In this document: one piece after another, positions 304-27,650 of the stretch
Layout: every line of letters begins with the position of its first letter
Numbering within the stretch: the first letter of the stretch is position 1
Source of the DNA: Escherichia phage SSBS18_WS_10_728
Sequence record: MT322327.1
DNA length: 64,000 bases
Reading direction: 5' to 3' (one strand)
The notes under the pieces: generated by a model
The model's database searches: none
What the model saw: the letters and a program-made list of their open reading frames with translations, nothing else
What the model was told of the DNA's origin: nothing
Made by a program: the position numbers and the translations under genes

Positions 304-307
304 AAAT

Positions 308-400: not shown

Positions 401-401
401 A

Positions 402-1136
402 TTATTTCTGTAATGCGTTCTTCATTTCTGGTGTTGCAATAGTGTCAATCACACCAGTTTTACAAGCATCATCAAACCAGTCTGGTAAGATACCTGCTAA
501 GAACCCATTGATATTCGTTTTAAGGTACTCTGCAATAAGGGCAGCTTCTTCTTCAATCATCTGAACAACTTCATCTGCATAAGCTGTAATCTTTGAAATA
601 CCTTCATTAATCTTATTAACAGCTTGGTTAGCTAAATCAGAAATAGTATCAAGACCTTTATCAATAGCATCCTGTAAGTCACTTAATACATCATTAACAC
701 CATCTAGTGTACTGTTAATCATATCCATAGCTTTTTGACCATACTCTGTAGCAACACCCATAATACCACTAAACGGTGTACAGCCAACTTGTTCCCCTGC
801 TGCACCCATAACATTAGAATAGCCTTTTGCTACCTGCATACGTGATGAAAACTCATCAATGGACTTTTGACCATAATCCGTCAGTGTTTTAGTGGTTGAT
901 GTAGTGCTTGTCAGACTCGTTGTAAAGCTGTTAAGCAGAACTGTTGTAAGTCCAGCAGCAACAAGTTTATCCTTTATTGTAGGGTCTGTTACAGAGCTAA
1001 TAGAGCTTACAAGTGATGTAGAGGCAGCTACGGTTCCACCTAGAACTGCTGCACCAGTAATAAGGGGATTAGAAAACCCTCTACCGGTTTTTAAGAGATT
1101 AAAAATCTCCTTACCTTGTTCTGTCATCTCTTTCAT
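402..1136 (-). CDS. hypothetical protein (Thr/Ser-rich)
   Basis: ORF 402..1199; start moved to internal ATG at 1136 (AAAGG RBS) because the 5' end overlaps tRNA-Phe. Confidence 0.45.
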   Translation of the reverse strand: MKEMTEQGKEIFNLLKTGRGFSNPLITGAAVLGGTVAASTSLVSSISSVTDPTIKDKLVAAGLTTVLLNSFTTSLTSTTSTTKTLTDYGQKSIDEFSSRMQVAKGYSNVMGAAGEQVGCTPFSGIMGVATEYGQKAMDMINSTLDGVNDVLSDLQDAIDKGLDTISDLANQAVNKINEGISKITAYADEVVQMIEEEAALIAEYLKTNINGFLAGILPDWFDDACKTGVIDTIATPEMKNALQK

Positions 1137-1152
1137 TAAGCACCTTTGAAAT

Positions 1153-1228
1153 TGGTAGTCCAGTGGGATTTGAACCCTCTTCTCATGTTTTTCAGACACG
1201 CGCTTTAACCATATAAGCTACTTGGACT
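1153..1228 (-). tRNA. tRNA-Phe (anticodon GAA)
   Basis: Acceptor stem 6/7 bp, T-arm GGGTTCAAATCCC, anticodon loop CUGAAAA, CCA encoded. Confidence 0.6.
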
Positions 1229-1234
1229 ATAAAT

Positions 1235-1310
1235 TGGGGTGACCTACGGGATTTGAACCCGTATAGACCATGTTCACAGCATGGGTCATTACCGTTTATG
1301 ATAAGGCCAC
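1235..1310 (-). tRNA. tRNA-His (anticodon GUG)
   Basis: Acceptor GTGGCCT/AGGTCAC, T-arm ACGGGTTCAAATCCCGT, anticodon loop CUGUGAA. Confidence 0.55.
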
Positions 1311-1341
1311 ATTTAAGGACTCTCGTAAGAACCCTTAGAAG

Positions 1342-1417
1342 TGGCAGCGGCATAAGGATTTGAACCTTAATAAGACAGCTTCAGAGACTGCTGCATTGCC
1401 AGTTATGCTATACCGCT
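1342..1417 (-). tRNA. tRNA-Gln (anticodon CUG), tentative
   Basis: D-stem GCAT/ATGC, anticodon stem GCAGT/GCTGT with loop CUCUGAA, T-arm TAAGGTTCAAATCCTTA, CCA encoded. Confidence 0.5.
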
Positions 1418-1422
1418 AAATT

Positions 1423-1501
1423 TGGTACTCCATATCGGATTCGAACCGATACATAACACAGATTTTAAGTCTGGCCTCTCTGCCAATTGGAGTAATGGAG
1501 C
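1423..1501 (-). tRNA. tRNA with Leu-type anticodon UAA but short variable arm (isotype uncertain)
   Basis: T-arm ATCGGTTCGAATCCGAT, CCA encoded, D-loop AATTGGCAGAG shared with tRNA at 2246..2323; anticodon loop CUUAAAA. Confidence 0.4.
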
Positions 1502-1503
1502 AT

Positions 1504-1578
1504 TGGCGGGGGATGTTGGAATTGAACCAACTTCTTCGATTTCAAAGACCGAGGTTTTAACCTTGTAAACTAATCCCC
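1504..1578 (-). tRNA. tRNA-Gln (anticodon UUG), tentative
   Basis: T-arm GTTGGTTCAATTCCAAC, anticodon stem TCGGT/ATCGA with loop CUUUGAA, CCA encoded. Confidence 0.5.
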
Positions 1579-1587
1579 TTTAAATCT

Positions 1588-2145
1588 TTACTTTCTCAGT
1601 GGATGAATAAAGAATGCCAACATAACTCTTTCCCTTGAGAATGCTCTTTCTTCTGGGACAACACTTTTAAGTTTCCAACCAACATAAATTCTCCAGTAGA
1701 ATTGTTTACCAAAGACTTTAATTGATGGGATAAAAGCGAATAACCCCCAAGCATTGCTGTTCCACATTAGGAGATAACCTGTCTGATTATCTTCAGGGTC
1801 AGAGCTTACGTTGATATTACCTTTCCACTTAGTAACATCTTTTACATCTCTTCCTAACACATGGTAAGAGAAGTTATAAGCTTTGTTTCTCCAGAGCCAT
1901 CCAACTCTCTGCAAATAGACACCCAGCTTACCAATCTTTCTAATCTTAGCCCATCTTTTAATGTGACCTTCATCACCATCAATAGGGTTGTCATATGTCT
2001 CCATCCATCTGAATCCAAAAGGTAGATGTCCTTTCTTCTCACTATAGAATGGAACTACAAAAGGTGCTAAGATAACTGCTAAGATTGCTGCCAATGGGTC
2101 TAGCAAAGCTAGGAAAATCCATGAAGCATACTTCAAATATCTCAT
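1588..2145 (-). CDS. hypothetical membrane-anchored protein inside the tRNA cluster
   Basis: 185-aa ORF, hydrophobic N-terminus, AAGAGG RBS 8 nt upstream of ATG. Confidence 0.55.
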   Translation of the reverse strand: MRYLKYASWIFLALLDPLAAILAVILAPFVVPFYSEKKGHLPFGFRWMETYDNPIDGDEGHIKRWAKIRKIGKLGVYLQRVGWLWRNKAYNFSYHVLGRDVKDVTKWKGNINVSSDPEDNQTGYLLMWNSNAWGLFAFIPSIKVFGKQFYWRIYVGWKLKSVVPEERAFSRERVMLAFFIHPLRK

Positions 2146-2164
2146 TTAAATAGCCTCTTTAAAT

Positions 2165-2240
2165 TGGCGCAGGATAAGGGATTCGAACCCCTATTAACAG
2201 CTTCGTAGACTGTTGCTCTATCCATTTGAACTAATCCTGC
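2165..2240 (-). tRNA. tRNA-Arg (anticodon ACG)
   Basis: Acceptor GCAGGAT/ATCCTGC perfect, anticodon stem ACAGT/GCTGT with loop CUACGAA, T-arm GGGGTTCGAATCCCTT. Confidence 0.55.
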
Positions 2241-2245
2241 AAAAT

Positions 2246-2323
2246 TGGTGTTCCAAGACGGATTCGAACCGTCACTAGTACAAGGTTTGAGCTTGCATCC
2301 TCTGCCAATTGGGATACTGGAAC
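2246..2323 (-). tRNA. tRNA with Leu-type anticodon CAA but short variable arm (isotype uncertain)
   Basis: T-arm GACGGTTCGAATCCGTC, anticodon stem GCAAG/CTTGT with loop CUCAAAC, CCA encoded. Confidence 0.4.
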
Positions 2324-2324
2324 A

Positions 2325-2399
2325 TGGTACTCACTAAAGGACTTGAACCTTTTTCTTCATCTTGTAATGGTGATGTTTTACCATATAAACTAAGCGAGT
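2325..2399 (-). tRNA. tRNA-Val (anticodon UAC), tentative
   Basis: D-stem GTTT/AAAC, T-arm AAAGGTTCAAGTCCTTT, anticodon loop AUUACAA. Confidence 0.4.
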
Positions 2400-2494
2400 G
2401 TGGAAGAGGTCTGAAGTTGTGCCGCTAACTCAACTCCGTGGAATTTGTTACGGTCTTCAGTTGACACCAGCGGTCTTTCACTTGACCTCTGAAT

Positions 2495-2571
2495 TGGTGC
2501 TGCTCACAGGACTCGAACCTGCATTTCCATCCTTACAAGGGATGTGTAATAGCCAATTATACGAAAGCAGC
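2495..2571 (-). tRNA. tRNA-Thr (anticodon UGU)
   Basis: Anticodon stem CATCC/GGATG perfect with loop CUUGUAA, T-arm GCAGGTTCGAGTCCTGT, CCA encoded. Confidence 0.6.
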
Positions 2572-2577
2572 ATTGTT

Positions 2578-2652
2578 TGGAGCATCCAGAGGGAATCGAA
2601 CCCTCAACCTCAGTTTGGAAGACTGTAATTTTCCCGTTTAAACTATGGATGC
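2578..2652 (-). tRNA. tRNA-Gly (anticodon UCC)
   Basis: Acceptor GCATCCA/TGGATGC perfect, T-arm GAGGGTTCGATTCCCTC, anticodon loop CUUCCAA. Confidence 0.55.
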
Positions 2653-2658
2653 ACTAAT

Positions 2659-2734
2659 TGGTGGAGTCACTGAGAATTGAACTCAGTTCCCAAGTTTGCA
2701 AAACTCGAATTTTAACCATATAAACTATGACCCC
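2659..2734 (-). tRNA. tRNA-Ala (anticodon UGC)
   Basis: Acceptor GGGGTCA with G3:U70 pair, T-arm CTGAGTTCAATTCTCAG, anticodon loop UUUGCAA. Confidence 0.6.
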
Positions 2735-2740
2735 AATGTT

Positions 2741-2816
2741 TGGTACAGGTGGAGGGAATTGAACCCATCGTCTTACTGATTAAGAGTCAGCCGCATAACC
2801 ATTTTGCTACACCTGC
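2741..2816 (-). tRNA. tRNA-Lys (anticodon CUU), tentative
   Basis: Acceptor GCAGGTG/CACCTGT, anticodon stem GCTGA/TCAGT with loop CUCUUAA, weak T-stem; paralog of tRNA at 4057..4132. Confidence 0.45.
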
Positions 2817-2823
2817 ATTAATT

Positions 2824-2901
2824 TGGTAGGAGACAAGGGATTCGAACCCTCAAACACCAACTTCTAAGGATGGTAGGTTTACCAATTACCGTCAATCTCC
2901 C
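2824..2901 (-). tRNA. tRNA with Leu-type anticodon UAG but short variable arm (isotype uncertain)
   Basis: T-arm GAGGGTTCGAATCCCTT, CCA encoded, anticodon loop CUUAGAA with 4/5-bp stem. Confidence 0.4.
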
Positions 2902-3156
2902 ATTAAATCTTTTTAGAGAACTTCTAAGAACCTAAGCAACAAGGTTCCACAACAAGCTGTAATAACCTTAGAAGCCCTCTAAAAAGACCTAAATAGGTCT
3001 TTACATAGTCTTGTTTAATCCGGTGACTAGAACCTTTGGAGAGCTTGATATTATCTCTTCTCCGTGACACCTACTAGGTGCTTTACTGTGCGTGTACGAC
3101 AATACACGAGGGATAAACCGAAAATGCGAGCAAGCATGACGGTGTAAATCTTATTA

Positions 3157-3246
3157 GGCGGTAAGTAAAGGAGTCGAACCCTCACCGTATCTCTACAGTG
3201 GCAACAGTTTTCAAGACTGTTTGGCTGCCATTAGCCGCTACCTACC
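3157..3246 (-). tRNA. tRNA-Ser (anticodon UGA), class II
   Basis: Acceptor GGTAGGT/ACTTACC, anticodon stem ACAGT/ACTGT perfect with loop CUUGAAA, long variable arm, T-loop TTCGACT; 3' CC encoded. Confidence 0.6.
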
Positions 3247-3259
3247 CCTAATAAGACTT

Positions 3260-3342
3260 TGGCATGGGACGGAGGAGTTGAACCCCTTTGAAACGGTTTT
3301 GGAGGCCGTTGCTCATGCCTTAGAGTCTTAACATCGTCCCAC
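3260..3342 (-). tRNA. tRNA, possibly Trp (anticodon CCA); atypical length
   Basis: Acceptor GTGGGAC/GTCCCAT, T-arm AGGGGTTCAACTCCTCC, CCA encoded, hairpin with loop CUCCAAA; D region ~7 nt too long in my fold. Confidence 0.35.
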
Positions 3343-3484
3343 ACTATAATTCGAAGCTTACCGTATTTTCGCAACACTGTAAAGCCCCTTCTCAGATTAT
3401 TTACATGTTCTGGAAAACATGAGATACAGACCACCTCCTTACACGGAGACCCGATAAGGTCGTCTAAGCAATCTGCTAACTATT

Positions 3485-3561
3485 TGGCACACCCTACAGG
3501 ATTCGAACCTGTAACTCAATGATTAGAAGTCATTTGCTCTGTCCAGTTGAACTAAGGGTGC
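3485..3561 (-). tRNA. tRNA-Arg (anticodon UCU)
   Basis: Anticodon stem AATGA/TCATT perfect with loop CUUCUAA, T-arm ACAGGTTCGAATCCTGT, CCA encoded. Confidence 0.6.
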
Positions 3562-3854
3562 ATTAATCTTTAAAGACTCTCTTAGAAAGCCCTTAAAGAT
3601 GCCCACTTTATTAATCATACCGTGGGCTAGTACGCCAAATTCTTTGATGAGGGATTGGAAGACCTCACTGGTGTTTAGCCTATCAAGCTACTGCCAGAAA
3701 AACATTGTCGTTTGCATTTATTTTAAATTTGCAAAATAGACGCTACGCAACGAAAACTATTCAGAATATGTACAACAAATTTCCCCACATTGTGTTACGT
3801 CTAACGCTCATGTATTGGTGTTTGAATTATACATATTATGAATCATTTTTAGTT

Positions 3855-3883
3855 ACTATAAAGCGGTCACATCTCAATGTCAA
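3855..3883 (-). promoter_or_regulatory. sigma70-like promoter reading leftward into tRNA genes
   Basis: Minus strand: -35 TTGACA, 17-bp spacer, -10 TATAGT. Confidence 0.5.
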
Positions 3884-3898
3884 CAACTTTATTGAAAT

Positions 3899-3974
3899 TG
3901 GTACTGGTAGGTGGAATCGAACCACCGATATTCCCTTATCAGGGGAGTGTTATAACCTTCTTAACTATACCAGC
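3899..3974 (-). tRNA. tRNA-Ile (anticodon GAU)
   Basis: Acceptor GCTGGTA/TACCAGT, T-arm GGTGGTTCGATTCCACC, anticodon loop CUGAUAA. Confidence 0.55.
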
Positions 3975-3975
3975 T

Positions 3976-4052
3976 TGGAGGTTCAGATGGGAATCGAACC
4001 CACATTCATAGGGCTTATGAAACCCCTGCATTACCTTATCTGCGACTGAACC
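3976..4052 (-). tRNA. tRNA-Met (anticodon CAU; elongator or Ile2-type)
   Basis: Acceptor GGTTCAG/CTGAACC perfect, anticodon stem GGGGT/GCCCT with loop UUCAUAA, T-arm GTGGGTTCGATTCCCAT. Confidence 0.55.
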
Positions 4053-4056
4053 ATAT

Positions 4057-4132
4057 TGGTAGAAGTGGAGGGATTCGAACCCATCGCCTGTCAGATTAAA
4101 AGTCTGCCGCATCACCATTCTGCTACACTTCC
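4057..4132 (-). tRNA. tRNA-Lys (anticodon UUU)
   Basis: Acceptor GGAAGTG/CACTTCT, anticodon stem GCAGA/TCTGA with loop CUUUUAA, CCA encoded. Confidence 0.5.
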
Positions 4133-4333
4133 ATTAAATTATCTTTGTAGATAAGCTACCCAGACTTGCTTAAGGTCTGTAGCGATGTGCCTTGTTGGGT
4201 TTAAATCTAGAATTTACCCTTTCACCCTTTGTGGTCGCATACTCACAGGTAAGCTTAATAGCTCACCTACAAAGATAATTACCAGACCGTTGTTTATCAT
4301 CTTAAGTGCTACCATTACACCAACTCGACATCT

Positions 4334-4357
4334 GCCGAGTGAAGGAATCGAACCTTC
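4334..4357 (-). other. orphan tRNA T-arm-like element (possible tRNA remnant)
   Basis: Perfect T-arm GAAGGTTCGATTCCTTC on minus strand but no matching 5' acceptor strand or CCA nearby. Confidence 0.3.
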
Positions 4358-4393
4358 GCCTTTTCTTTACCGGAGAAATAGATTGTTTAAGTT

Positions 4394-4413
4394 TTGCTGT
4401 AAACGGTCTTCTG
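4394..4413. repeat. tRNA-cluster repeat copy A (TTGCTG-N5-GGTCTTCTG)
   Basis: One of four 20-nt copies; CCAGACC partner at 4281 and 4424. Confidence 0.6.
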
Positions 4414-4483
4414 TAAATTTGTTGAGCCAGACCAAGTTTTAAATTTTTTCAAAATTAAATTGGCTTGAAAATATCATACGTGC

Positions 4484-4503
4484 TTGCTGAATTTGGTCTT
4501 CTG
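4484..4503. repeat. tRNA-cluster repeat copy B
   Basis: TTGCTGAATTTGGTCTTCTG; CCAGACC partner at 4424. Confidence 0.6.
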
Positions 4504-4591
4504 CTCCTTTAAAGAACACTCGTAAGAACCCTTTAAGGGAGGGGCTAAAATAGCCCTCTCAAAACATCATCTTGAAATACTTATTATAATT

Positions 4592-4669
4592 TGGCGGTTA
4601 CGAAGGGATTTGAACCCTCATCATCTCCCGTGACAGGGGAGTATTTTAACCAGATTAAACTACATAACC
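4592..4669 (-). tRNA. tRNA-Asp (anticodon GUC)
   Basis: Anticodon stem CTCCC/GGGAG perfect with loop CUGUCAC, T-arm GAGGGTTCAAATCCCTT, CCA encoded. Confidence 0.65.
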
Positions 4670-4675
4670 TTTATT

Positions 4676-4763
4676 TGGTGTGCCGTGTAGGAGTCGAACC
4701 TACCGAGTCTCAATGACAAGGGATTTACAGTCCCCACCGCTACCATCTACGGGATAACGACAC
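4676..4763 (-). tRNA. tRNA-Tyr (anticodon GUA), class II
   Basis: Acceptor GTGTCGT/ACGGCAC, anticodon loop CUGUAAA, long variable arm, T-arm GTAGGTTCGACTCCTAC, CCA encoded; 88 nt. Confidence 0.6.
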
Positions 4764-4772
4764 ATTTAAATT

Positions 4773-4849
4773 TGGCGGTTAGTCAGGGATTCGAACCCTG
4801 TGCCATTCGCTTAACAGGCGACCGCACATACCTTATGTGCTTCCTAACC
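4773..4849 (-). tRNA. tRNA-Asn (anticodon GUU)
   Basis: D-stem GCAC/GTGC, anticodon loop CUGUUAA, T-arm CAGGGTTCGAATCCCTG, CCA encoded. Confidence 0.6.
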
Positions 4850-4900
4850 TTAATACATTGCCAGACCGTGTTTTTTCTTTTATCCGCAAAAAGTATTTTG

Positions 4901-4920
4901 TTGCTGAATACGGTCTTCTG
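4901..4920. repeat. tRNA-cluster repeat copy C
   Basis: TTGCTGAATACGGTCTTCTG, 6 nt from 3' end of tRNA-Met; CCAGACC partner at 4861. Confidence 0.6.
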
Positions 4921-4926
4921 CAAAAT

Positions 4927-5003
4927 TGGAGGCGGGTGCAGGAGTCGAACCTGCCGATACCATGCTAATGAGACATGTGAGACGCCCTTTCTCTATACCC
5001 GCA
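4927..5003 (-). tRNA. tRNA-Met (anticodon CAU), possible initiator
   Basis: Anticodon stem CATGT/GCATG with loop CUCAUUA, T-arm GCAGGTTCGACTCCTGC, unpaired 1:72 position, CCA encoded. Confidence 0.5.
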
Positions 5004-5067
5004 ATTCTTAATGACCAGACCAAATCTCTTCTTTGTCCGATTTACCTTCAGATGAATAAGATTAAGT

Positions 5068-5087
5068 TTGCTGTAATTGGTCTTCTG
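5068..5087. repeat. tRNA-cluster repeat copy D
   Basis: TTGCTGTAATTGGTCTTCTG, 7 nt from 3' end of tRNA-Glu; CCAGACC partner at 5015. Confidence 0.6.
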
Positions 5088-5094
5088 TCAAAAC

Positions 5095-5172
5095 TGGCGT
5101 TCCAGAAGGGATTTGAACCCTCAAATATCCACTTTGAAAGAGTGGTGACTTTACCATTTTGTCCACTGGAAC
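5095..5172 (-). tRNA. tRNA-Glu (anticodon UUC)
   Basis: Anticodon stem CCACT/AGTGG perfect with loop CUUUCAA, T-arm GAGGGTTCAAATCCCTT, CCA encoded. Confidence 0.6.
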
Positions 5173-5179
5173 ATTAATT

Positions 5180-5256
5180 TGGTCTCTGTTGGAGGACTTG
5201 AACCTCCGGCCTTACCGCCCCAAACGGAACGCTCTACCAAGCTGAGCTAAACAGAG
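5180..5256 (-). tRNA. tRNA-Pro (anticodon UGG)
   Basis: Acceptor CTCTGTT/AACAGAG perfect, anticodon loop UUUGGGG, T-arm GGAGGTTCAAGTCCTCC, CCA encoded. Confidence 0.6.
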
Positions 5257-8919: not shown

Positions 8920-10049
8920 TTAAAGCAAAGACTTACCCAGACTTCAAAGAATTTGTAAAAGGTTTCGTTGCAAATGTAAAGGCTGGTAAGAGATATGATT
9001 TTAGAACATATCAAGAAGCTATTTTACCACTCACCTATAGCTCATATTGGCCTGAAGCTGATATTGCAGAGGTTGAGAAGTTTGACTACAAACCAGACTA
9101 CAAAGTTCCTTTCAGTGATGAACTTCTTTACAGTGTTGGTGCACAGATGAGAACTGCTGATTTCTTCATGGATTTACAGTATGCAATCATCAATGGTAAA
9201 GATGTTGACACAGTATATTGTGAATGGTTGGCAAGAGTTAAGCCGTTCTCAATGTTGAATGCTAAGTTGAAGGATGCCATTAAGCCACCAGTAATTACTC
9301 AGCAGCCAACAAACCAAACAGTCAATGAGGGTGGAGCACTTACCCTAAGTGTTCTCGCAACCAATGCCACTGGGTATCAATGGAAGAAGGATGGTGAGGA
9401 TATCTCAAGTGCCACTTCTGCAACTTACACAAAACAGTCGGTAGCTCCTTCTGATGCTGGCTCATACACTTGCGTTGTGTCTGGAGAGGGTGGAACAAGT
9501 GTCACCTCAGATGCAGCAACAGTTACTGTTAACGCACTACCTGTTATTACCAAGCAACCTTCTAGTCAGACTATCAATGAAGGTGGGAACATCAACTTAG
9601 CAGTGACTGCAACAGGTGCAACTGGTTACCAATGGAAGAAAGATGGTGCTAACATCCCTTCAGCTACGAAGGCCAACTACAGCAAATCTGGTGCGCTTCC
9701 AGCAGATGCAGGTTCTTACACATGTGTTGTGACTGGTGCTGGAGGTTCTGTTACTTCTAGCCCTGCAACAATTACGGTAAAGGCTTTGCCAGTTATCACT
9801 CAACAGCCAGCAAATCAAGAAATCACTGAAGGAGAGACCTTAACGCTGAATGTTGTGGCTACTGGTGCAACAGGTTATCAGTGGAAGAAAGGTGAGGAAG
9901 TCATCCCAGACGCAACTGCTGCAACTTACACCAAAGAAGGTGCAACCGCTGCTGATGCAGGAAGCTACACCTGTGTAGTGACTGGCGCAGGTGGCTCTGT
10001 AACATCTAATGCAGCAACAGTTACAGTTAACCCAACAGGGGAGGCATAA
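8916..10049 (+). CDS. protein with three tandem Ig-like domains
   Basis: 377 aa; three ~90-aa repeats each with GYQWKKDG and GSYTCVV motifs; ATGA start overlap. Confidence 0.6.
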   Translation: MIKAKTYPDFKEFVKGFVANVKAGKRYDFRTYQEAILPLTYSSYWPEADIAEVEKFDYKPDYKVPFSDELLYSVGAQMRTADFFMDLQYAIINGKDVDTVYCEWLARVKPFSMLNAKLKDAIKPPVITQQPTNQTVNEGGALTLSVLATNATGYQWKKDGEDISSATSATYTKQSVAPSDAGSYTCVVSGEGGTSVTSDAATVTVNALPVITKQPSSQTINEGGNINLAVTATGATGYQWKKDGANIPSATKANYSKSGALPADAGSYTCVVTGAGGSVTSSPATITVKALPVITQQPANQEITEGETLTLNVVATGATGYQWKKGEEVIPDATAATYTKEGATAADAGSYTCVVTGAGGSVTSNAATVTVNPTGEA

Positions 10050-10513
10050 TGCAACTCTCAAGAAAAGGTTTAGAGGCTATTAAGTTCTTTGAAGGTCTGA
10101 AGTTAGAGGCTTACAAAGATTCTGCCGGAATCCCAACAATCGGGTATGGTACAATCCGTATTGACGGGAAACCTGTTAAGATGGGTATGAAAATCACGGC
10201 TGAACAAGCTGAACAGTATCTTCTCGCAGATGTTGAAAAGTTCGTTGCAGCAGTGAATAAAGCTATCAAGGTTCCAACTTCTCAGAATGAGTTTGACGCA
10301 CTTGTAAGTGAAACATACAACATCGGTATCACAGCTATGCAGGATTCTACATTTATCAAGCGCCACAATGCTGGTAATAAGGTAGGTTGTGCAGAAGCTA
10401 TGCAGTGGTGGAACAAGGTCACAGTCAAGGGTAAGAAGGTCACTTCAAACGGACTGAAAAACAGACGTAGAATGGAAGCTGACATTTATCTTGACAGTGT
10501 ATACCCAAAGTAA
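10049..10513 (+). CDS. lysozyme, GH24 (T4 lysozyme / P22 gp19-like)
   Basis: Motif FEGLKLEAYKDSAGIPTIGYGT matches T4 lysozyme catalytic region; GGAGG RBS. Confidence 0.75.
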   Translation: MQLSRKGLEAIKFFEGLKLEAYKDSAGIPTIGYGTIRIDGKPVKMGMKITAEQAEQYLLADVEKFVAAVNKAIKVPTSQNEFDALVSETYNIGITAMQDSTFIKRHNAGNKVGCAEAMQWWNKVTVKGKKVTSNGLKNRRRMEADIYLDSVYPK

Positions 10514-12629: not shown

Positions 12630-12863
12630 ATGCGTGGTGAAAGAATGAAAAAGCTAACTACAGTTGAAGATTACTACAAACTGTCCCTATTAGAACAATA
12701 TCGTAGAAGTCAGAATATCAGGAAATGCTATGGCAAACACGCTGAAGGTGACTTTTACCGTTGCTACGATGCAGATTTAAAAGGTGTAACACCTAGAGGG
12801 AAAGTCCTGCAAAGACTTGTTGACCTTGAGTGGGACAAACGATTGAGAGGGGTTGGGAAATGA
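12630..12863 (+). CDS. hypothetical protein
   Basis: 77-aa ORF; start ambiguous (12630 or 12645). Confidence 0.4.
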   Translation: MRGERMKKLTTVEDYYKLSLLEQYRRSQNIRKCYGKHAEGDFYRCYDADLKGVTPRGKVLQRLVDLEWDKRLRGVGK

Positions 12864-13363
12864 TTTACGAAGAAAGATATAAGATAGATTATCAGGATAC
12901 TCGTCATCATACTTCTTTGAGAGTAACCAAACCAAATGGAGATACTGGTATTATAGCACATTTTGGTGGTGATTATTGGTATGGCACAGGTTGCTTTGAA
13001 GGTTACAATAAAGAATACTTGAAAGCTTTCTACAGAGACTTTACAAATGACTACAACAGGGTTGTTGACGAAAAGAATAAGTGCATTAAGCATGAACACC
13101 ATGCCAGAGGTTGTTTAAGTACGGTAATGATACTGGCATTTTTCTTAGCAACATTACTGGCAGTATCAGCAATCAGTTACATAGCTCAAGATTTAACCAT
13201 TACACAGATTACCGCAAAGGTATATGATGTCTGGTACTTGTATGCTGTTCCTTTAGCTGGTATCATCATCTCACTAATGAGATTCAGAGTTCATAAGAAA
13301 CGACTCAAGGACTCTGAGGTTAAACTTGAAGAGGTAAGTAAAGAATGCAACCTACAATTATAG
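12860..13363 (+). CDS. hypothetical protein with C-terminal transmembrane segment
   Basis: Start moved to ATG 12860 (GAGGGG RBS, ATGA overlap). Confidence 0.45.
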   Translation: MIYEERYKIDYQDTRHHTSLRVTKPNGDTGIIAHFGGDYWYGTGCFEGYNKEYLKAFYRDFTNDYNRVVDEKNKCIKHEHHARGCLSTVMILAFFLATLLAVSAISYIAQDLTITQITAKVYDVWYLYAVPLAGIIISLMRFRVHKKRLKDSEVKLEEVSKECNLQL

Positions 13364-23217: not shown

Positions 23218-24003
23218 TTAGTTCTTTGCGCCTAAAAAGGTAACTTCTGGTGAAGAGAAAATTTCCTCAACATTCTCATCAGTTCTTGCATAGATATATG
23301 TGTCTGCATCACTGCCAAATGTTACTGCAATTCTGTGATTGCTCTTCGACAGGTGGGTAACTAGAGCGTTACTTAGAGACATCTTTTCAACCGGAGGGTT
23401 ACTTTGATGTATCTCGCCTTTTCTTCGTCTGAAGAGGGTAACTGCATCATCAGTGAACGTTACTACACCTGCAAAGTATTCTGGTTCACAGTAGTTCTTC
23501 CAACCTGAGCGTAACTTGTGGTACATCTCCCCTTCGTAGACATACAGATACACATCTACACTCTTCATCACCTGATTAATGATAACGGTAACGGCTTGAG
23601 GGTCCAGTCCACCGATACCTGCACCAATCATAGGTAACCCAACTTTCTTCAACTGATTCACTTCACAGTATCTGTTAAACTGTTTCAAAGATGACTCTAA
23701 AGCACTGTATCGAGCATCTTTACCAGTCTTAAGCTGAGTGTAAAGGTTAGCTATACGGCCTTGTTTTAAACGTGCTACAGAGAAATTGCCTAGTAAATTC
23801 TCACAGGGCTTGTGGCCTATTCCACCTGCATACAGATAAACTTCTGTATCAGTCTCATATGCTTTTGGGTAAAGTTTAGAAATCTTGTCAGCGATACCTG
23901 CACCCATTAAGTTCATACAGTTGCAACCGTGACCGATGACGTCAAACTTACCTTTATCAAATGCTGCAAAGATATCACCATTGATAATTTTTACAATACC
24001 CAT
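23218..24003 (-). CDS. macro-domain protein (ADP-ribose binding/hydrolase-like) with C-terminal extension
   Basis: N-terminal motifs NGDIF, VIGHGCNCMNLMGAGIA, IGAGIGGL typical of Macro/Appr-1-p processing domains. Confidence 0.6.
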   Translation of the reverse strand: MGIVKIINGDIFAAFDKGKFDVIGHGCNCMNLMGAGIADKISKLYPKAYETDTEVYLYAGGIGHKPCENLLGNFSVARLKQGRIANLYTQLKTGKDARYSALESSLKQFNRYCEVNQLKKVGLPMIGAGIGGLDPQAVTVIINQVMKSVDVYLYVYEGEMYHKLRSGWKNYCEPEYFAGVVTFTDDAVTLFRRRKGEIHQSNPPVEKMSLSNALVTHLSKSNHRIAVTFGSDADTYIYARTDENVEEIFSSPEVTFLGAKN

Positions 24004-25035: not shown

Positions 25036-25301
25036 TTCCTCGTTTTAAGAACTGCTAAGATTTCTTTAGAATCTGGTAAGAACCATGTGTAGTGATTCTC
25101 TTTGATTTCTGGATGAGTGTCAACCTTTATTTTGAACTCTTTACCAACATGCTTAAGCTGTGCTGTGACACCTTGCATAAAGATATGACACATCACGTTA
25201 TCCATAATGGTTGGTGAGAAATCAACCCGCATATAAGTTTCTTTTGGTCGTGGTAGCAGTAAGTACCCTTCTACATAGAAAGTGTCTTCGCTCTCTGTCA
25301 T
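25032..25301 (-). CDS. hypothetical protein
   Basis: 89-aa ORF. Confidence 0.45.
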   Translation of the reverse strand: MTESEDTFYVEGYLLLPRPKETYMRVDFSPTIMDNVMCHIFMQGVTAQLKHVGKEFKIKVDTHPEIKENHYTWFLPDSKEILAVLKTRK

Positions 25302-25567
25302 TGCTGTTTATTCCCTAATAAAATCATGTCAATAAGGTTATTAGCTTTTATTGTGCACTGATAAAAACCATCACGATAAAACTCAAGGGCTGCTGCCACA
25401 TCACTACCAGTATTACCTTTGACGGTGAATCTTGATTCTTCTTGTGTGTACTTATCACTCTCACTTACTTGGGAGTTTTTGAATGTACTGTTCACTTTGT
25501 TCGTTGAACACCCTGACATAGTTATCAGTAACACAAACATTATAAAACTCTGGCTTAGTTTTTTCAT
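25298..25567 (-). CDS. lipoprotein (lipobox MSGC); candidate o-spanin (Rz1-like)
   Basis: Signal peptide with lipobox Cys; gene overlaps the 3' part of 25461..25808 in another frame. Confidence 0.45.
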   Translation of the reverse strand: MKKLSQSFIMFVLLITMSGCSTNKVNSTFKNSQVSESDKYTQEESRFTVKGNTGSDVAAALEFYRDGFYQCTIKANNLIDMILLGNKQQ

Positions 25568-25808
25568 ATGTTAGTACCTCTTTTGTATGCTTATTCTTAG
25601 CAAGCACATCTTTCAAATCATTTTTGTAATTGGTGCTGAGTGTGGCTAAACCTTCCTGATAAGCATCTTTGGCAACACTTATTAGTTTCTCATTATTTAG
25701 TTCAGTTTCAGCAACTTGGTAGTCTCTGTAAGAGTATCCTCCCCAGACACCTGCTCCAACTAAGAAAACAATTATGAAAGTAGCTTGACAGAACTCTTTA
25801 AATGTCAT
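25461..25808 (-). CDS. N-terminal-TM protein; candidate i-spanin (Rz-like)
   Basis: TM helix FIIVFLVGAGVWGGY then helical domain; overlapping lipoprotein gene. Confidence 0.45.
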   Translation of the reverse strand: MTFKEFCQATFIIVFLVGAGVWGGYSYRDYQVAETELNNEKLISVAKDAYQEGLATLSTNYKNDLKDVLAKNKHTKEVLTYEKTKPEFYNVCVTDNYVRVFNEQSEQYIQKLPSK

Positions 25809-25825
25809 TTAACAATCTCCTGAAA

Positions 25826-25852
25826 TGAAAAAGGCTCCCGAAGGAGCCTGTA
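25826..25852 (-). terminator. rho-independent terminator
   Basis: Minus strand: GGCTCC-TTCG-GGAGCC then TTTTTCATTT. Confidence 0.55.
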
Positions 25853-25860
25853 TCTTAACC

Positions 25861-26325
25861 TTAACCGAGGACTTTAGCAAGGACATTTGCAGCCATCGAA
25901 GAAGCTTTTGCAGCAGCAGCTACCCCAGCTTTAATAGCGTTATCCTTGATAGCAGATACCGTTGCAGCATCAGTAAAGAGATAAGTAGTTGTTTTAGAAC
26001 CACTTGTAAAGGAAAGCATAAGAGCAGTTTCCAGATTGAAAGAGCGATACGGAGCACCTTCTTTAACGATACCTTCAGCACCTAACTCTGAAGCCATACC
26101 CATATCATAGATAGTCATCAGGTTTTCTTTGTGTGCAGTCGTTGAGCCAGCACCTTTGACGTGTTTCTTAACATTAAGAAGAGCACGGTATTCTCGGATG
26201 TTACCATCTGCTTTTACATTGACAGCACGGAAGATTTTACCCTCAAAGTTGCTTTTGATAATGTTACGAACTACTTCAGATTTGTTTGCCGTAACGTCCA
26301 GTGCTACCGTAATGATATTGTTCAT
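25861..26325 (-). CDS. hypothetical protein
   Basis: 154-aa ORF, Ala-rich C-terminus. Confidence 0.5.
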   Translation of the reverse strand: MNNIITVALDVTANKSEVVRNIIKSNFEGKIFRAVNVKADGNIREYRALLNVKKHVKGAGSTTAHKENLMTIYDMGMASELGAEGIVKEGAPYRSFNLETALMLSFTSGSKTTTYLFTDAATVSAIKDNAIKAGVAAAAKASSMAANVLAKVLG

Positions 26326-26335
26326 AAGTTTTCTC

Positions 26336-27031
26336 TCAATGTTTTACTAACATAGTTTTAATGTGCGGAAGGATTCTGTTTACCTTCTGAACATTCTTCT
26401 CTGTATCTTCTATAAAACATACTATATTAAAGTAAGGAAGAATGCAAGACTGAATCATCCTGACTTTCAAACTTTCTGCATTTATAGAGTTAGTTCCAAA
26501 ACCACGCATAAAAAGCATGTAATCGTGCTCTATGTTATGCCTTAAAAACATCTCAGTAGGTATTCTCTGAGATTCACCTCTCGCTGTCAAGAGTCCAATG
26601 GCAGCGTGATTAGCAATTGCATCAATAATACTAAAAACATACGTTGGTTTTGCTCTTACAGAGTCAAGAAGATTAGTGTACTGTGAGAATGACCCATCAG
26701 TCAATTCCGTTGAGCAATCTTCGTGATTAAAATTTGTAAGAACACCATCAATATCTGCTAAGATGAGGTTACCTTTTTCTACAAGGTCTTTATTGACTAT
26801 GACTAAACTGTCACGTCTTACACCTATAGATTGTCCAGTCTCTTTGTCCACAACGTTCACAATTGGTTCTGATGTGTGGAACTCTTCAAGTGAACATACA
26901 ACCTCTCTTGCAGTGTCTTCAAAATCCCTGCACTGTTCTGGAGTCCATATACAGGAATCAAGACCTAACTCATGAGGATGCAAGTCGTAAGCATGACACA
27001 GCACTTCATCAGACTTTCTTAATTTTTTCAT
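26336..27031 (-). CDS. HAD-like phosphatase / 5'-nucleotidase-like protein (tentative)
   Basis: DxDGV-type motif ILADIDGVLT; motif lies ~90 residues in, so assignment is weak. Confidence 0.4.
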   Translation of the reverse strand: MKKLRKSDEVLCHAYDLHPHELGLDSCIWTPEQCRDFEDTAREVVCSLEEFHTSEPIVNVVDKETGQSIGVRRDSLVIVNKDLVEKGNLILADIDGVLTNFNHEDCSTELTDGSFSQYTNLLDSVRAKPTYVFSIIDAIANHAAIGLLTARGESQRIPTEMFLRHNIEHDYMLFMRGFGTNSINAESLKVRMIQSCILPYFNIVCFIEDTEKNVQKVNRILPHIKTMLVKH

Positions 27032-27557
27032 GATTTACCTTAGAAATGTTTGTTGCAAATTCACATTGAGCGATGACTTTCATATTGTTATAGACATCTT
27101 GAGAGTATTTCTTAGCTTTAGGAATTTTGTACGAGTACCCAGCATTATATGATGCTAAAACTTTTTGTAAAGTCTTCTTTGACTTTGGTTGACCGTGTAC
27201 CTTAGTCCAAAATTCAAGCTCTTTGTGTGTTTCCTTTGCAGCATAGTCAAAATCTTTTAAGAGTTTCTTTTTAGCCACATTAGGACTAATTTTGTTACGC
27301 TTTACAACAGTCTTCAAGTGATTCTGGAAAATACCATAGTCATGGGTCTTTTTATTCTCTACCTTCAGACCTAACTCTGACTCTTGTAAGGCTATAGCTG
27401 CTAGAGTGATACCCCAGCCTTTGCCCATGTTGTTCTCACCATACTGGTAAGCCTTTAACATGTTAACTTTTTGGCTAATTGATAGCTCTGGGCAGTCAAC
27501 TGCATAAGCTAATTGTGCTGTAAACATTAAGCACAAACCTAGAATCAATTTCTTCAT
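27009..27557 (-). CDS. secreted lytic transglycosylase (SLT domain)
   Basis: Signal peptide MKKLILGLCLMFTAQLAYA; SLT motifs ALQESELG, GIFQ, SYNAGYS. Confidence 0.55.
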   Translation of the reverse strand: MKKLILGLCLMFTAQLAYAVDCPELSISQKVNMLKAYQYGENNMGKGWGITLAAIALQESELGLKVENKKTHDYGIFQNHLKTVVKRNKISPNVAKKKLLKDFDYAAKETHKELEFWTKVHGQPKSKKTLQKVLASYNAGYSYKIPKAKKYSQDVYNNMKVIAQCEFATNISKVNHEKIKKV

Positions 27558-27618
27558 TGGTTCTCCTGTTTAGTTTATCGTGACAACAATTATACAGCAC
27601 TCTGCACAAAATACAAAT

Positions 27619-27650
27619 AAAAAAGGCCGCCGAAGCAGCCTTTTAAGAAA
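27619..27650 (-). terminator. rho-independent terminator (possibly bidirectional)
   Basis: Hairpin GGCCGCCGAAGCAGCC flanked by A-run and T-run. Confidence 0.5.

What the first reader, a model, noticed from the sequence alone, without database searches (positions are those of the whole stretch)
25298..27557. Possible second lysis module, separate from the GH24 lysozyme
A lipoprotein gene (lipobox MSGC) overlaps out of frame the 3' part of a gene for an N-terminal-TM helical protein, the hallmark of an Rz/Rz1 spanin pair. Nearby is an SLT-domain transglycosylase with a cleavable signal peptide. The GH24 lysozyme is 15 kb away on the other strand, so the phage may carry two muralytic enzymes with different export routes, or the secreted SLT may act in entry or superinfection control.
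Basis: partly seen in the sequence, partly recalled or inferred. Interest (0 to 1): 0.45.

Follow-up and report, generated by a model that had tools for sequence, protein, structure and literature searches.

The report
Known spanins plus secreted Vs.1-like transglycosylase
This stretch of a Felix O1-like phage holds the phage's single, already catalogued spanin gene pair (the last step of host lysis) and, in a separate transcription unit, a secreted cell-wall-cutting enzyme homologous to the uncharacterised T4 protein Vs.1; it is not a second lysis cassette.

Summary
The window is a Felixounavirus, about 97% identical in DNA to phages SME50, skuden and Mushroom. An 89-aa lipoprotein gene (25298-25567, -) overlaps by 107 nt, in the +1 frame, the 3' end of a 115-aa gene with an N-terminal transmembrane segment (25461-25808, -). 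Divergence patterns show that both frames are under selection.

This pair is already annotated as i-/o-spanin in many GenBank records. It is listed in the overlapped class of the published spanin census and described in the Mushroom genome paper. It is the only lipobox gene in the 64 kb. It therefore completes one scattered, T4-style lysis system: predicted holin 1588-2145, GH24 endolysin 10049-10513, spanins here.

The "SLT" gene (27009-27557, -) encodes a GH23-fold enzyme with an intact catalytic Glu-Ser motif, the other family-1 transglycosylase motifs and a cleavable-type signal peptide. It is the homologue of T4 Vs.1, found in more than 2,000 phage genomes, and I found no reported function. 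Two genes and a terminator-like hairpin separate it from the spanins. Some records call it "RegB-like", which is an annotation slip.

Verdict: real, ordinary, already known. The only open question is what Vs.1-family enzymes do.

The parts
25298..25567 (-). o-spanin (outer-membrane lipoprotein subunit), 89 aa. Predicted SPII cleavage is before Cys20, giving a 70-aa mature protein with one free Cys (Cys71).
   Evidence: The lipobox rule is met and +2 is Ser. Family matches: phrog_4180 at 1.6e-50 and phrog_456 'Rz-like spanin' at 1.1e-4. Annotated o-spanin in Mushroom, SME50, skuden and Mordin. Homologous to the Kuravirus Paul o-spanin (E = 1e-11), whose record note reports a LipoP SpII score of 18. 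Third-position bias in its own frame.
25461..25808 (-). i-spanin (inner-membrane subunit), 115 aa. N-terminal TM segment at residues 6-24 and a periplasmic domain with a conserved Cys92.
   Evidence: phrog_1152 'Rz-like spanin' at 8e-42. TM segment. Annotated i-spanin or Rz-like spanin in many records. Cys92 invariant in alignment A4. AF2 gives all-helical secondary structure, but pLDDT is only 60.6.
25461..25567 (-). 107-nt dual-coding overlap: the i-spanin C-terminus and, in the +1 frame, the o-spanin signal peptide and lipobox.
   Evidence: Divergence is half that of the flanks, with no codon-position bias. A 68-nt patch is about 80% identical to Kuravirus spanin genes.
25832..25849 (-). 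Terminator-like hairpin (AGGCTCC-TTCG-GGAGCCT followed by a T run) between orf154 and the i-spanin ribosome-binding site.
   Evidence: Scan result and sequence. A terminator is annotated at the same place in Mordin.
25861..26325 (-). Conserved 154-aa protein of unknown function.
   Evidence: phrog_2267 at 2.4e-50, function unknown. No Pfam, NCBIfam or PDB match. Its position is conserved in Mordin, SUSP1 and Omen.
26336..27031 (-). 'Polynucleotide kinase'-annotated protein, 231 aa. Only the HAD-type 3'-phosphatase part is recognisable (DIDGV at residues 93-97).
   Evidence: phrog_3970 at 4.4e-134. Residues 84-219 match positions 158-282 of the 295-position phrog_505. No Pfam or PDB hit.
27009..27557 (-). 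Vs.1-family secreted GH23 enzyme (lytic transglycosylase or muramidase), 182 aa. Signal peptide residues 1-19. Catalytic Glu59-Ser60, GxxQ78, Y137-N-A-G140, Y151. Probable Cys22-Cys165 disulfide.
27589..27616 (-). Promoter-like site upstream of the Vs.1-like gene: TTGTAT, 16 nt, TATAAT.
   Evidence: Read directly from the sequence. The -35 element matches only 3 of 6, so the automatic scan did not list it. This is weak evidence.
27621..27644 (-). Terminator-like hairpin (10-bp stem followed by a T run) after rIIB.
   Evidence: Scan result. A terminator is annotated at the same place in Mordin.
10049..10513 (+). GH24 endolysin, 154 aa, with no N-terminal hydrophobic segment.
   Evidence: PF00959 at 3.7e-41. 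phrog_7 endolysin at 7.4e-59. No TM segment found.
1588..2145 (-). Predicted holin, 185 aa, with a single N-terminal TM segment, lying inside the tRNA cluster.
   Evidence: Equivalent to CPT_Mushroom87, annotated 'holin' and described as class III in PMC4392139. TM segment at residue 9. The only family matches are Pfam DUF7338 and phrog_2143, both of unknown function, so the assignment rests on topology alone.

Best explanation
The region contains two unrelated functions.

(1) Spanins. Genes 25461-25808 and 25298-25567 are the phage's only two-component spanin, in the overlapped architecture.
- The i-spanin is anchored in the inner membrane by its N-terminal TM helix.
- The o-spanin is lipidated at Cys20 and sorted to the outer membrane, because residue +2 is Ser.
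- The two bind through their periplasmic C-terminal parts and probably form disulfide-linked homodimers through Cys92 and Cys71.
- When the holin releases the cytoplasmic GH24 endolysin and the wall is degraded, the complexes are freed and disrupt the outer membrane. This is the last step of lysis.
- Holin, endolysin and spanins are unlinked, as in T4.

(2) Vs.1-like enzyme. Gene 27009-27557 is a homologue of T4 Vs.1. It is a small GH23 glycan-strand-cleaving enzyme exported by Sec, with its signal peptide cleaved after Ala19.
- Its position suggests it has its own transcription start, between the rII genes and a phosphatase gene.
- It most likely makes limited cuts in the sacculus from the periplasmic side before lysis. 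It would be an accessory wall-remodelling activity, not the lysis enzyme.

What is shown here: gene anatomy, dual coding, homology, fold and motif conservation. What is inferred: export, lipidation, membrane fusion, timing, and the physiological role of the Vs.1-like enzyme.
For: Spanins:
- Lipobox, TM segment, ribosome-binding sites and +1-frame overlap.
- Dual-coding selection signature.
- Unique lipobox ORF in the window.
- phrog_1152 Rz-like spanin at 8e-42.
- Annotated i-/o-spanin in relatives.
- Felix O1 is listed among overlapped spanins in PMC6139136.
- PMC3185647 notes that no holin-lysin cassette is present.
- T4 has the same kind of arrangement: spanins pseT.3/pseT.2 lie beside pseT and away from e and t.
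- One conserved periplasmic Cys in each subunit.

Vs.1-like enzyme:
- Invariant E59, G63, Q78, Y137, N138, G140 and Y151 in 21 homologues down to 30% identity.
- Best sequence-profile PDB hit is the Sec-exported T3SS transglycosylase EtgA.
- Signal-peptide-like N-termini in the T4-like Vs.1, Det7 gp70 and Omen homologues.
- AF2 leaves residues 1-19 disordered and folds the rest.
- Cys22 and Cys165 co-occur in 15 sequences and are both absent in 4, which fits a periplasmic disulfide.
- Full-length similarity to T4-like Vs.1 at E = 1e-16, with matches in 2,143 phage records.
- Terminator-like hairpins on both sides of the SLT-phosphatase-orf154 block.
- Not among the virion proteins listed for Felix O1, where by gene order it would be gp3.
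- From established knowledge, not tested here: T4 lysozyme (e) mutants fail to lyse although they carry vs.1. A Vs.1-type enzyme therefore does not replace the endolysin.
Against: - No experiment on this phage's spanins or on any Vs.1 homologue was found.
- The lipobox has Met at -3, outside the strict [LVI] consensus. This Met is conserved in the family, and deviant lipoboxes are accepted.
- The mature o-spanin has no proline, unlike lambda Rz1.
- The i-spanin model is of low confidence (pLDDT 60.6).
- The window protein scores just under Pfam's SLT cutoff, and Foldseek E-values are modest (best 6.5e-3).
- No dedicated signal-peptide or lipoprotein predictor (such as SignalP or LipoP) was available; the calls are rule-based.
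- The terminator directly upstream of the spanin ribosome-binding site leaves the spanin promoter unidentified.
- The timing of expression of every gene here is inferred from position only.
Confidence: 0.82

Rival explanations
1. A true second lysis module. The Sec-exported SLT is a second endolysin held inactive in the periplasm until the membrane is depolarised. It would work with the adjacent spanins independently of the GH24 lysozyme.
For: A muralytic GH23 fold with an intact active site plus a signal peptide. It lies 1.2 kb from the spanins on the same strand. Sec-exported endolysins exist in other phages (own knowledge: oenophage fOg44 Lys44).
Against: - Two unrelated genes and a terminator-like hairpin separate it from the spanins.
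- The distance to the spanins is not conserved; in Omen it is 2.7 kb greater.
- In T4-like phages the homologue Vs.1 sits beside regB and vs, about 75 kb (by record coordinates) from the spanins.
- There is only one spanin pair in the window.
- T4 e mutants do not lyse despite carrying vs.1 (established knowledge).
- The published description of this phage group gives one T4-like lysis system.
Confidence: 0.08
2. The secreted GH23 enzyme acts in phage-phage or phage-host conflict rather than in wall remodelling for the producing phage. Examples would be superinfection control, or altering the wall or its turnover products to affect incoming phages or host signalling.
For: Its position among the rII and nucleotide-metabolism genes suggests early expression. 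Its periplasmic location is the same compartment where the T4 exclusion proteins Imm and Sp act (own knowledge). It is conserved across three families of large virulent myophages. No function has been reported.
Against: There is no direct evidence. Catalytic residues are strictly conserved, which points to real wall cleavage. Nothing in its gene neighbourhood is exclusion-related.
Confidence: 0.08
3. The 182-aa protein is a T4 RegB-like endoribonuclease, as annotated in phages Mushroom, Mordin and dinky.
For: GenBank product names and notes only.
Against: - BLASTP against a T4-like RegB gives E = 19.
- There is no Pfam RegB hit at E <= 0.1.
- The true homologue is Vs.1, the gene next to regB.
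- The fold is GH23.
- A cleavable signal peptide is incompatible with a cytoplasmic RNase.
Confidence: 0.01
4. The SLT is a SAR-type (signal-anchor-release) endolysin rather than a protein with a cleaved Sec signal.
For: An N-terminal hydrophobic stretch lies in front of a muralytic domain.
Against: - The hydrophobic core is only about 14-16 residues (LILGLCLMFTAQLAYA).
- It is Leu/Phe-rich rather than Gly/Ala/Ser-rich.
- It is followed by a canonical A-x-A site (A17-Y-A19|V), and homologues show the same short n-h-c pattern.
- A cytoplasmic GH24 endolysin and a predicted large-hole (class III) holin are present.
Confidence: 0.03

Closest known systems
Felix O1 gp6/gp7 and their orthologues (for example Mushroom CPT_Mushroom124/123), the overlapped-class spanins of SpaninDB (Kongari et al. 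2018)
   Same: Orthologous genes. The i-spanin is 98-100% identical to those of FO1a, FSL SP-107 and VpaE1. Lengths, the 107-nt overlap and the gene neighbourhood are the same.
   Different: Nothing of substance. Some records leave the o-spanin unannotated or start it at an internal Met.
Lambda Rz/Rz1
   Same: A type II inner-membrane protein and an outer-membrane lipoprotein encoded in the +1 frame of the same DNA. Each has periplasmic Cys residues. The inferred role is outer-membrane disruption after wall degradation.
   Different: - Overlapped rather than embedded architecture.
- No detectable sequence similarity to lambda Rz/Rz1 was seen in these searches.
- The i-spanin is shorter (115 against 153 aa) and the mature o-spanin longer (70 against 40 aa).
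- The o-spanin has no proline and carries a conserved LE[FW]Y[RQ]D..[FY]..C motif.
- The pair is not adjacent to the holin or endolysin.
T4 PseT.3/PseT.2 spanins
   Same: They are unlinked to the endolysin and holin, lie among early/middle genes, and sit next to the polynucleotide kinase/phosphatase gene. This matches the 'T4-like lysis system' described for this phage group.
   Different: - The T4 genes overlap by only 4 nt, which counts as the separated class.
- Gene order relative to pnk is reversed.
- No T4-like phage appeared among the listed tblastn matches to the i-spanin.
T4 Vs.1 (NP_049725) and its homologues in Tevenvirinae, Ackermannviridae (Det7 gp70) and Ounavirinae
   Same: About 180 aa, with a signal-peptide-like N-terminus, the E-S, GxxQ and YNxG motifs, and 31% identity over 172 aa at E = 1e-16. 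All are of unknown function. A marginal SLT match was noted in 2006.
   Different: The Ounavirinae proteins add a Cys22-Cys165 pair and an Asp at position 73. The neighbours also differ: rIIB and a phosphatase here, regB and vs in T4.
Specialised small lytic transglycosylases of secretion systems (EtgA of the EPEC T3SS; by own knowledge also IagB, IpgF, VirB1 and P19)
   Same: - Best sequence-profile match in the PDB is EtgA, E = 1.3e-4.
- A single GH23 domain of 150-190 aa, exported by Sec.
- Asp73 aligns with the EtgA Asp of the YDIG motif.
   Different: It is encoded by a virulent phage with no associated secretion apparatus. No partner protein is known that would localise or activate it. 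Identity is only about 20%.
Exported endolysins (own knowledge: the Sec-dependent Lys44 of phage fOg44; the SAR endolysins P1 Lyz and phage 21 R21)
   Same: A muralytic enzyme that reaches the wall without a holin hole.
   Different: In those phages the exported enzyme is the only endolysin. Here a canonical cytoplasmic GH24 endolysin is present, and the N-terminus looks cleavable rather than SAR-like.

Membership tests
Two-component spanin: i-spanin | A single N-terminal transmembrane domain (type II, N-in/C-out). | tested here: met
   Residues 6-24, FCQATFIIVFLVGAGVWGG, KD19 = 1.75. There is no other hydrophobic segment.
Two-component spanin: i-spanin | A mainly alpha-helical (coiled-coil) periplasmic domain. 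| tested here: inconclusive
   AF2 predicts helices at 39-57, 65-79, 85-92 and 95-111, but mean pLDDT is 60.6 and only a monomer was modelled.
Two-component spanin: i-spanin | Sequence membership of a recognised Rz-like family. | tested here: met
   phrog_1152 'Rz-like spanin' at E = 8e-42, covering the full length. Matches in 402 phage records, many of them annotated i-spanin.
Two-component spanin: o-spanin | A lipoprotein signal with a lipobox Cys. | tested here: met
   MKKLSQSFIMFVLLITMSG|C20 fits the PROSITE PS51257-type rule. Met at -3 lies outside the strict [LVI] consensus but is conserved in Mordin, SUSP1 and Paul. The Paul orthologue carries a LipoP SpII note. LipoP and SignalP were not available here.
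Two-component spanin: o-spanin | Outer-membrane sorting (no Asp at +2) and a short soluble mature domain. | tested here: met
   Residue +2 is Ser21. The mature protein is 70 aa.
Two-component spanin: pair | The o-spanin gene is embedded in, overlaps or immediately follows the i-spanin gene, and both are maintained by selection. | tested here: met
   A 107-nt overlap in the +1 frame. Divergence is 11-12% in the overlap against 21-25% in the flanks, with frame-specific third-position bias. The overlap is conserved as far as Kolesnikvirus (137 nt) and Kuravirus.
Two-component spanin: pair | At least one periplasmic Cys for homotypic disulfide links (507 of 528 systems in PMC6139136). | tested here: met
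   i-spanin Cys92 is invariant. o-spanin Cys71 is conserved in Mordin, SUSP1, Paul and Omen.
Two-component spanin: pair | Function: required for outer-membrane disruption; complements lambda Rz/Rz1. | not testable with these tools
   No experiment on this spanin family was found in the papers read.
GH23 / family 1 lytic transglycosylase (SLT domain) | A catalytic Glu followed by Ser, plus the GxxQ, (A/S)YNxG and downstream Tyr motifs. | tested here: met
   E59-S60, G75-I-F-Q78, S136-Y-N-A-G140 and Y151. E59, Q78, Y137, N138, G140 and Y151 are invariant in 21 homologues.
GH23 / family 1 lytic transglycosylase (SLT domain) | A goose-lysozyme/SLT fold. | tested here: met
GH23 / family 1 lytic transglycosylase (SLT domain) | Reaches Pfam PF01464's curated score. 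| tested here: not met
   19.3 bits against a cutoff of 21.3 (E = 8.9e-4). Five more distant homologues do carry PF01464. This is a statistical threshold, not a structural feature, and the motif and fold tests override it.
GH23 / family 1 lytic transglycosylase (SLT domain) | The reaction product is 1,6-anhydro-MurNAc (transglycosylase) rather than a hydrolysis product (muramidase). | not testable with these tools
   Asp73 aligns with the extra Asp of EtgA, so hydrolytic activity cannot be excluded.
T4 Vs.1 family | Full-length similarity to T4 Vs.1, including the signal-peptide-like N-terminus. | tested here: met
   BLASTP E = 1e-16, 31% identity over residues 1-155. tblastn hits are labelled Vs.1.
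Sec (SPI) secreted protein | n-h-c signal peptide with small residues at -3 and -1. | tested here: met
   Rule-based reading only: MKK, then LILGLCLMFTAQL, then A17-Y-A19|V. AF2 leaves residues 1-19 unstructured. Homologues show the same pattern. SignalP was not available.
SAR endolysin | An uncleaved, weakly hydrophobic, Gly/Ala-rich N-terminal TM domain of about 20 residues. | tested here: not met
   The hydrophobic core is short and Leu/Phe-rich, and an AxA site follows it.
T4 RegB endoribonuclease | Sequence similarity to RegB. | tested here: not met
   BLASTP E = 19. No Pfam hit.
Contiguous lysis cassette (holin-endolysin-spanin) | Lysis genes adjacent to one another and co-transcribed. 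| tested here: not met
   Predicted holin at 1588-2145 (-), endolysin at 10049-10513 (+), spanins at 25298-25808 (-). The Felix O1 paper reports no holin-lysin cassette.

The most novel reading that the evidence does not exclude
The Vs.1-family secreted GH23 enzyme may be a conserved but never characterised pre-lysis function of large virulent myophages of Gram-negative bacteria. Matches occur in more than 2,000 phage genomes, including T4-like, Vi1-like and Felix O1-like phages. An enzyme exported to the periplasm could nick or remodel the sacculus during infection. Possible purposes are allowing cell enlargement during prolonged infection or lysis inhibition, priming the wall so that endolysin and spanins act faster, or interfering with superinfecting phages. 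Under this reading it would be a distinct step of infection, separate from the holin-endolysin-spanin pathway.
Probability: 0.3. Interest if true: 0.45.

Novelty: already known. Interest (0 to 1): 0.15.

Why it matters
For this window it matters little. The spanins are textbook components and are already annotated and catalogued.

There are two practical gains:
- Annotation can be corrected. The 'RegB-like endoribonuclease' and 'putative lysin' labels should read 'Vs.1-like secreted GH23 transglycosylase'. Several relatives have truncated or missing o-spanin calls.
- A very widespread phage enzyme family still has no assigned role. It has an intact active site and a signal-peptide-like N-terminus in the homologues examined. 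It could be studied by simple knockouts in T4 or Felix O1-like phages.

Tried and rejected
- **Second spanin or u-spanin near the GH24 lysozyme.** A six-frame lipobox scan of the whole window found only the known o-spanin, plus three implausible TTG-start ORFs that lie antisense to or out of frame with real genes.
- **RegB homology.** Rejected.
- **SAR endolysin.** Rejected on the length and composition of the hydrophobic region and the AxA site.
- **Single-sequence PDB searches.** The SLT, the phosphatase and orf154 gave nothing useful. Only the profile search reached EtgA.
- **NCBIfam.** No meaningful hits for the spanins or the SLT.
- **Literature on a function for Vs.1.** Searches on vs.1 with transglycosylase, regB or periplasmic, and on phage periplasmic transglycosylase with superinfection, found only the 2006 comparative-genomics remark. 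The T4 genome review (PMC150520) is not held.
- **AF2 of the i-spanin.** The model is low-confidence and helical. It fits the expected shape but does not prove a coiled coil.
- **Holin by homology.** The Mushroom 'holin' equivalent matches only DUF7338 and a PHROG of unknown function, so that assignment stays topological.
- **Spanin promoter.** No room for one was seen between the upstream terminator and the spanin ribosome-binding site, and none was identified.


Full report
**Identity of the window**

A 3-kb query around the finding matches 259 phage records. 257 of them match over at least 80% of its length. The best matches are about 97% identical: Escherichia phages SME50 and skuden, and Salmonella phage Mushroom, all Felixounavirus in the Ounavirinae. 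The window is therefore a Felix O1-like virulent myophage genome.

**Check of the observation**

All genes in 24.0-31.2 kb lie on the - strand.

- ORF 25461-25808 encodes 115 aa. It has AGGAG 8 nt upstream and one hydrophobic segment at residues 6-24.
- ORF 25298-25567 encodes 89 aa. It has AAGAGG upstream and starts MKKLSQSFIMFVLLITMSG|C. This fits a PROSITE-type lipoprotein rule, and residue +2 is Ser.
- The two ORFs share 107 nt, with the lipoprotein in the +1 frame.

The overlap is not a chance ORF, for two reasons.

- A six-frame scan of all 64 kb finds no other credible lipobox ORF.
- Compared with Citrobacter phage Mordin and Escherichia phage SUSP1 (about 80% identical), the i-only and o-only segments differ at 21-25% of sites. 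Those differences concentrate at third positions of the correct frame (28 of 52 and 26 of 41). The shared 107 nt differ at only 11-12%, with no positional bias. Synonymous changes collapse in control frames. This is the signature of two overlapping coding frames under selection.

The third gene, 27009-27557, encodes 182 aa starting MKKLILGLCLMFTAQLAYA|VDCP. The GH24 lysozyme is at 10049-10513 on the + strand (PF00959, E = 3.7e-41).

**The pair is a known spanin**

- The 115-aa protein matches PHROG 1152 'Rz-like spanin' at 8e-42. The lipoprotein matches phrog_4180 and, weakly, phrog_456 'Rz-like spanin'.
- The orthologues are annotated i-spanin and o-spanin in Mushroom, SME50, skuden, Mordin, SUSP1 and many others.
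- Kongari et al. 2018 list Felix01, FO1a and UAB_phi87 as a group within the overlapped architectural class.
- The i-spanin here is 100% identical to proteins encoded by FSL SP-107, LF82P5 and VpaE1_ev108.

The family extends beyond this genus. In Erwinia phage Omen (Kolesnikvirus) I found a full 91-aa lipobox ORF overlapping the annotated Rz-like spanin by 137 nt. It also occurs in phiEco32-like podophages (Kuravirus), with the same overlapped layout.

Conserved features are one periplasmic Cys in each subunit (i-spanin Cys92, o-spanin Cys71) and a C-terminal o-spanin motif LE[FW]Y[RQ]D..[FY]..C.

An AlphaFold model of the i-spanin is all-helical but of low confidence (pLDDT 60.6).

**It is not a second lysis module**

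The lysis genes are scattered across the window.

- The equivalent of Mushroom's annotated holin is window 1588-2145 (-). It is a 185-aa protein with one N-terminal TM segment, lying inside a cluster of 26 tRNA genes. It matches only families of unknown function, so the assignment rests on topology.
- The endolysin is at 10 kb on the other strand.
- The spanins are at 25.3-25.8 kb.

The Felix O1 genome paper already noted the absence of a holin-lysin cassette, 'as with coliphage T4'. T4 itself carries its spanins pseT.3/pseT.2 beside the polynucleotide kinase gene pseT and away from e and t. Here too a pnk-like gene (26336-27031) lies just upstream of the spanins. Only its HAD 3'-phosphatase part is recognisable. 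The region therefore holds the third component of a single lysis system.

**The SLT-like gene**

Sequence evidence:

- Pfam SLT scores just under its cutoff (19.3 against 21.3 bits). PHROG 600 has no assigned function.
- 21 homologues down to 30% identity keep E59, G63, Q78, Y137, N138, G140 and Y151 invariant, and S60 nearly so. These are the E-S, GxxQ, YNxG and Tyr motifs of family 1 lytic transglycosylases.
- A profile of the alignment finds the T3SS-associated transglycosylase EtgA as the best solved relative (E = 1.3e-4). Goose-type lysozymes follow.

Structural evidence:

- The AlphaFold model is confident for the mature domain (mean pLDDT 84.7; residues 21-165 mostly above 90). It leaves residues 1-19 disordered.
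- Foldseek lists the same families with probability 1.00 but modest E-values.

The protein is therefore a GH23 enzyme with an intact active site.

Evidence for periplasmic location:

- The N-terminus has a positively charged start, a short Leu/Phe-rich core and an A-Y-A site. This is the pattern of a cleaved Sec signal, not of a SAR anchor.
- The same pattern occurs in the homologues examined.
- Cys22 and Cys165 are present together in 15 homologues and absent together in 4. This fits a disulfide that forms only in the periplasm.

**Homology to T4 Vs.1**

- tblastn finds matches in 2,143 phage records. They include Tevenvirinae hits labelled 'Vs.1 conserved hypothetical protein', Ackermannviridae (Det7 gp70), Aeromonas, Vibrio and Acinetobacter T4-like phages, and all Ounavirinae.
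- In a T4-like genome the match is the gene between regB and vs.
- Pairwise BLASTP to that Vs.1 gives E = 1e-16 and 31% identity from residue 1 to 155. Against RegB it gives E = 19.
- The 'endoribonuclease, T4 RegB-like' label in Mushroom, Mordin and dinky is therefore a slip onto the neighbouring gene's name.
- Nolan et al. 2006 already recorded the marginal SLT match of vs.1 and suggested 'some role in cell lysis'.
- I found no paper that assigns a function.

**Relation of the SLT gene to the spanins**

- The order rIIA-rIIB-SLT-phosphatase-orf154-i-spanin-o-spanin is conserved in Felixounavirus, Mooglevirus and Suspvirus.
- In Kolesnikvirus the SLT-phosphatase pair is kept, but five extra genes separate it from the spanins.
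- Terminator-like hairpins follow rIIB (27644-27621) and orf154 (25849-25832). Both are annotated as terminators in Mordin.
- A TTGTAT-16-TATAAT site lies between the first hairpin and the SLT start.
- The SLT-phosphatase-orf154 block therefore looks like its own unit. The linkage to the spanins is loose.
- The protein is not among the virion proteins identified for Felix O1, where by gene order it would be gp3. With a cleaved signal peptide it is unlikely to be an entry enzyme.

**Most likely mechanism**

Spanins. The steps below are inferred from the family; the anatomy is shown here.

1. The i-spanin inserts into the inner membrane, and the o-spanin is lipidated and sorted to the outer membrane.
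2. The two form periplasm-spanning complexes held within the wall meshwork.
3. The holin releases the GH24 endolysin and the wall is degraded.
4. The freed complexes then disrupt the outer membrane.

Vs.1-like enzyme. It is exported by Sec and cuts glycan strands from the periplasmic side before lysis. I consider an accessory wall-remodelling or priming role most likely. It is probably not an autonomous lysis enzyme, because T4 lysozyme (e) mutants do not lyse although they carry vs.1. That point is established knowledge, not tested here. Its real role remains open. Superinfection-related roles and a back-up endolysin role are kept as rivals with low weight.

**Novelty and score**

The proteins already exist in public records, at identical or nearly identical sequence. 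The spanin assignment is published, and the SLT similarity of the Vs.1 family is published. The finding is real but ordinary. What remains of interest is that a very widespread, apparently active, exported phage muralytic enzyme family has no known role.

Noticed in passing
window 27009-27557 (-); L001 4989-5537; L004 5213-5761: The Vs.1-like GH23 protein is annotated 'endoribonuclease, T4 RegB-like' in Mushroom and Mordin and 'protein RegB' in Salmonella phage dinky. It has no similarity to RegB (E = 19). It is homologous to Vs.1, the gene adjacent to regB in T4-like phages, so this is an annotation slip that has spread between records.
   Followed up: yes
window 26336-27031 (-): The 'polynucleotide kinase' has only a recognisable HAD-type 3'-phosphatase part: DIDGV at residues 93-97, matching the C-terminal half of T4-PseT-like PHROGs. 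No P-loop was seen. The first roughly 85 residues are unassigned. T4 also places its spanins beside pseT (L012 7003-8782).
   Followed up: partly
L002 3299-3520; L009 8437-8712: There are o-spanin annotation errors in relatives. skuden_106 starts at an internal Met and so lacks the signal peptide. Erwinia phage Omen annotates only a 42-aa stub (Omen_097), whereas a full 91-aa lipobox ORF overlaps the i-spanin by 137 nt.
   Followed up: yes
window 25501-25568: A 68-nt patch of the spanin overlap is about 80% identical in DNA to the spanin genes of phiEco32-like podophages (Kuravirus, for example phage Paul). The proteins are otherwise only about 28-37% identical. This could reflect strong dual-coding constraint or exchange between unrelated phage groups.
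   Followed up: partly
window 1588-2145 (-), within tRNA cluster 228-5256: The gene equivalent to Mushroom's annotated class III holin sits between tRNA-Gln and tRNA-Arg, inside a cluster of 26 tRNA genes. It matches only Pfam DUF7338 and phrog_2143, both of unknown function. ARAGORN places the tRNAs on the - strand, whereas the Mushroom record lists them on the opposite strand to the holin.
   Followed up: partly
window 12830-13363 (+): A 177-aa protein with two C-terminal hydrophobic segments (phrog_4343, unknown function) lies about 2.3 kb downstream of the endolysin on the same strand. It is another membrane protein that could be considered as a holin or antiholin candidate.
   Followed up: no
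protein P0036 (ENA metagenome, 136 aa): A metagenomic protein joins residues 1-37 of the i-spanin to the N-terminus of the pnk-like protein. It is either an assembly chimera or a natural deletion or rearrangement variant.
   Followed up: no
window 23218-24003 (-): A 261-aa macro-domain protein (PF01661, E = 1.3e-7) is annotated 'phosphatase' in relatives. T4-like phages carry an A1pp/macro 'putative phosphatase' (tk.4) near vs.1, and Kuravirus Paul has an Appr-1-p processing gene directly after its o-spanin. The recurring neighbourhood is unexplained.
   Followed up: no
window 25832-25849 (-) and 25809-25831: A strong terminator-like hairpin ends only about 12 nt before the i-spanin ribosome-binding site, leaving no room for a promoter. 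How and when the spanin genes are transcribed (read-through, or a promoter overlapping the hairpin) is unclear.
   Followed up: no
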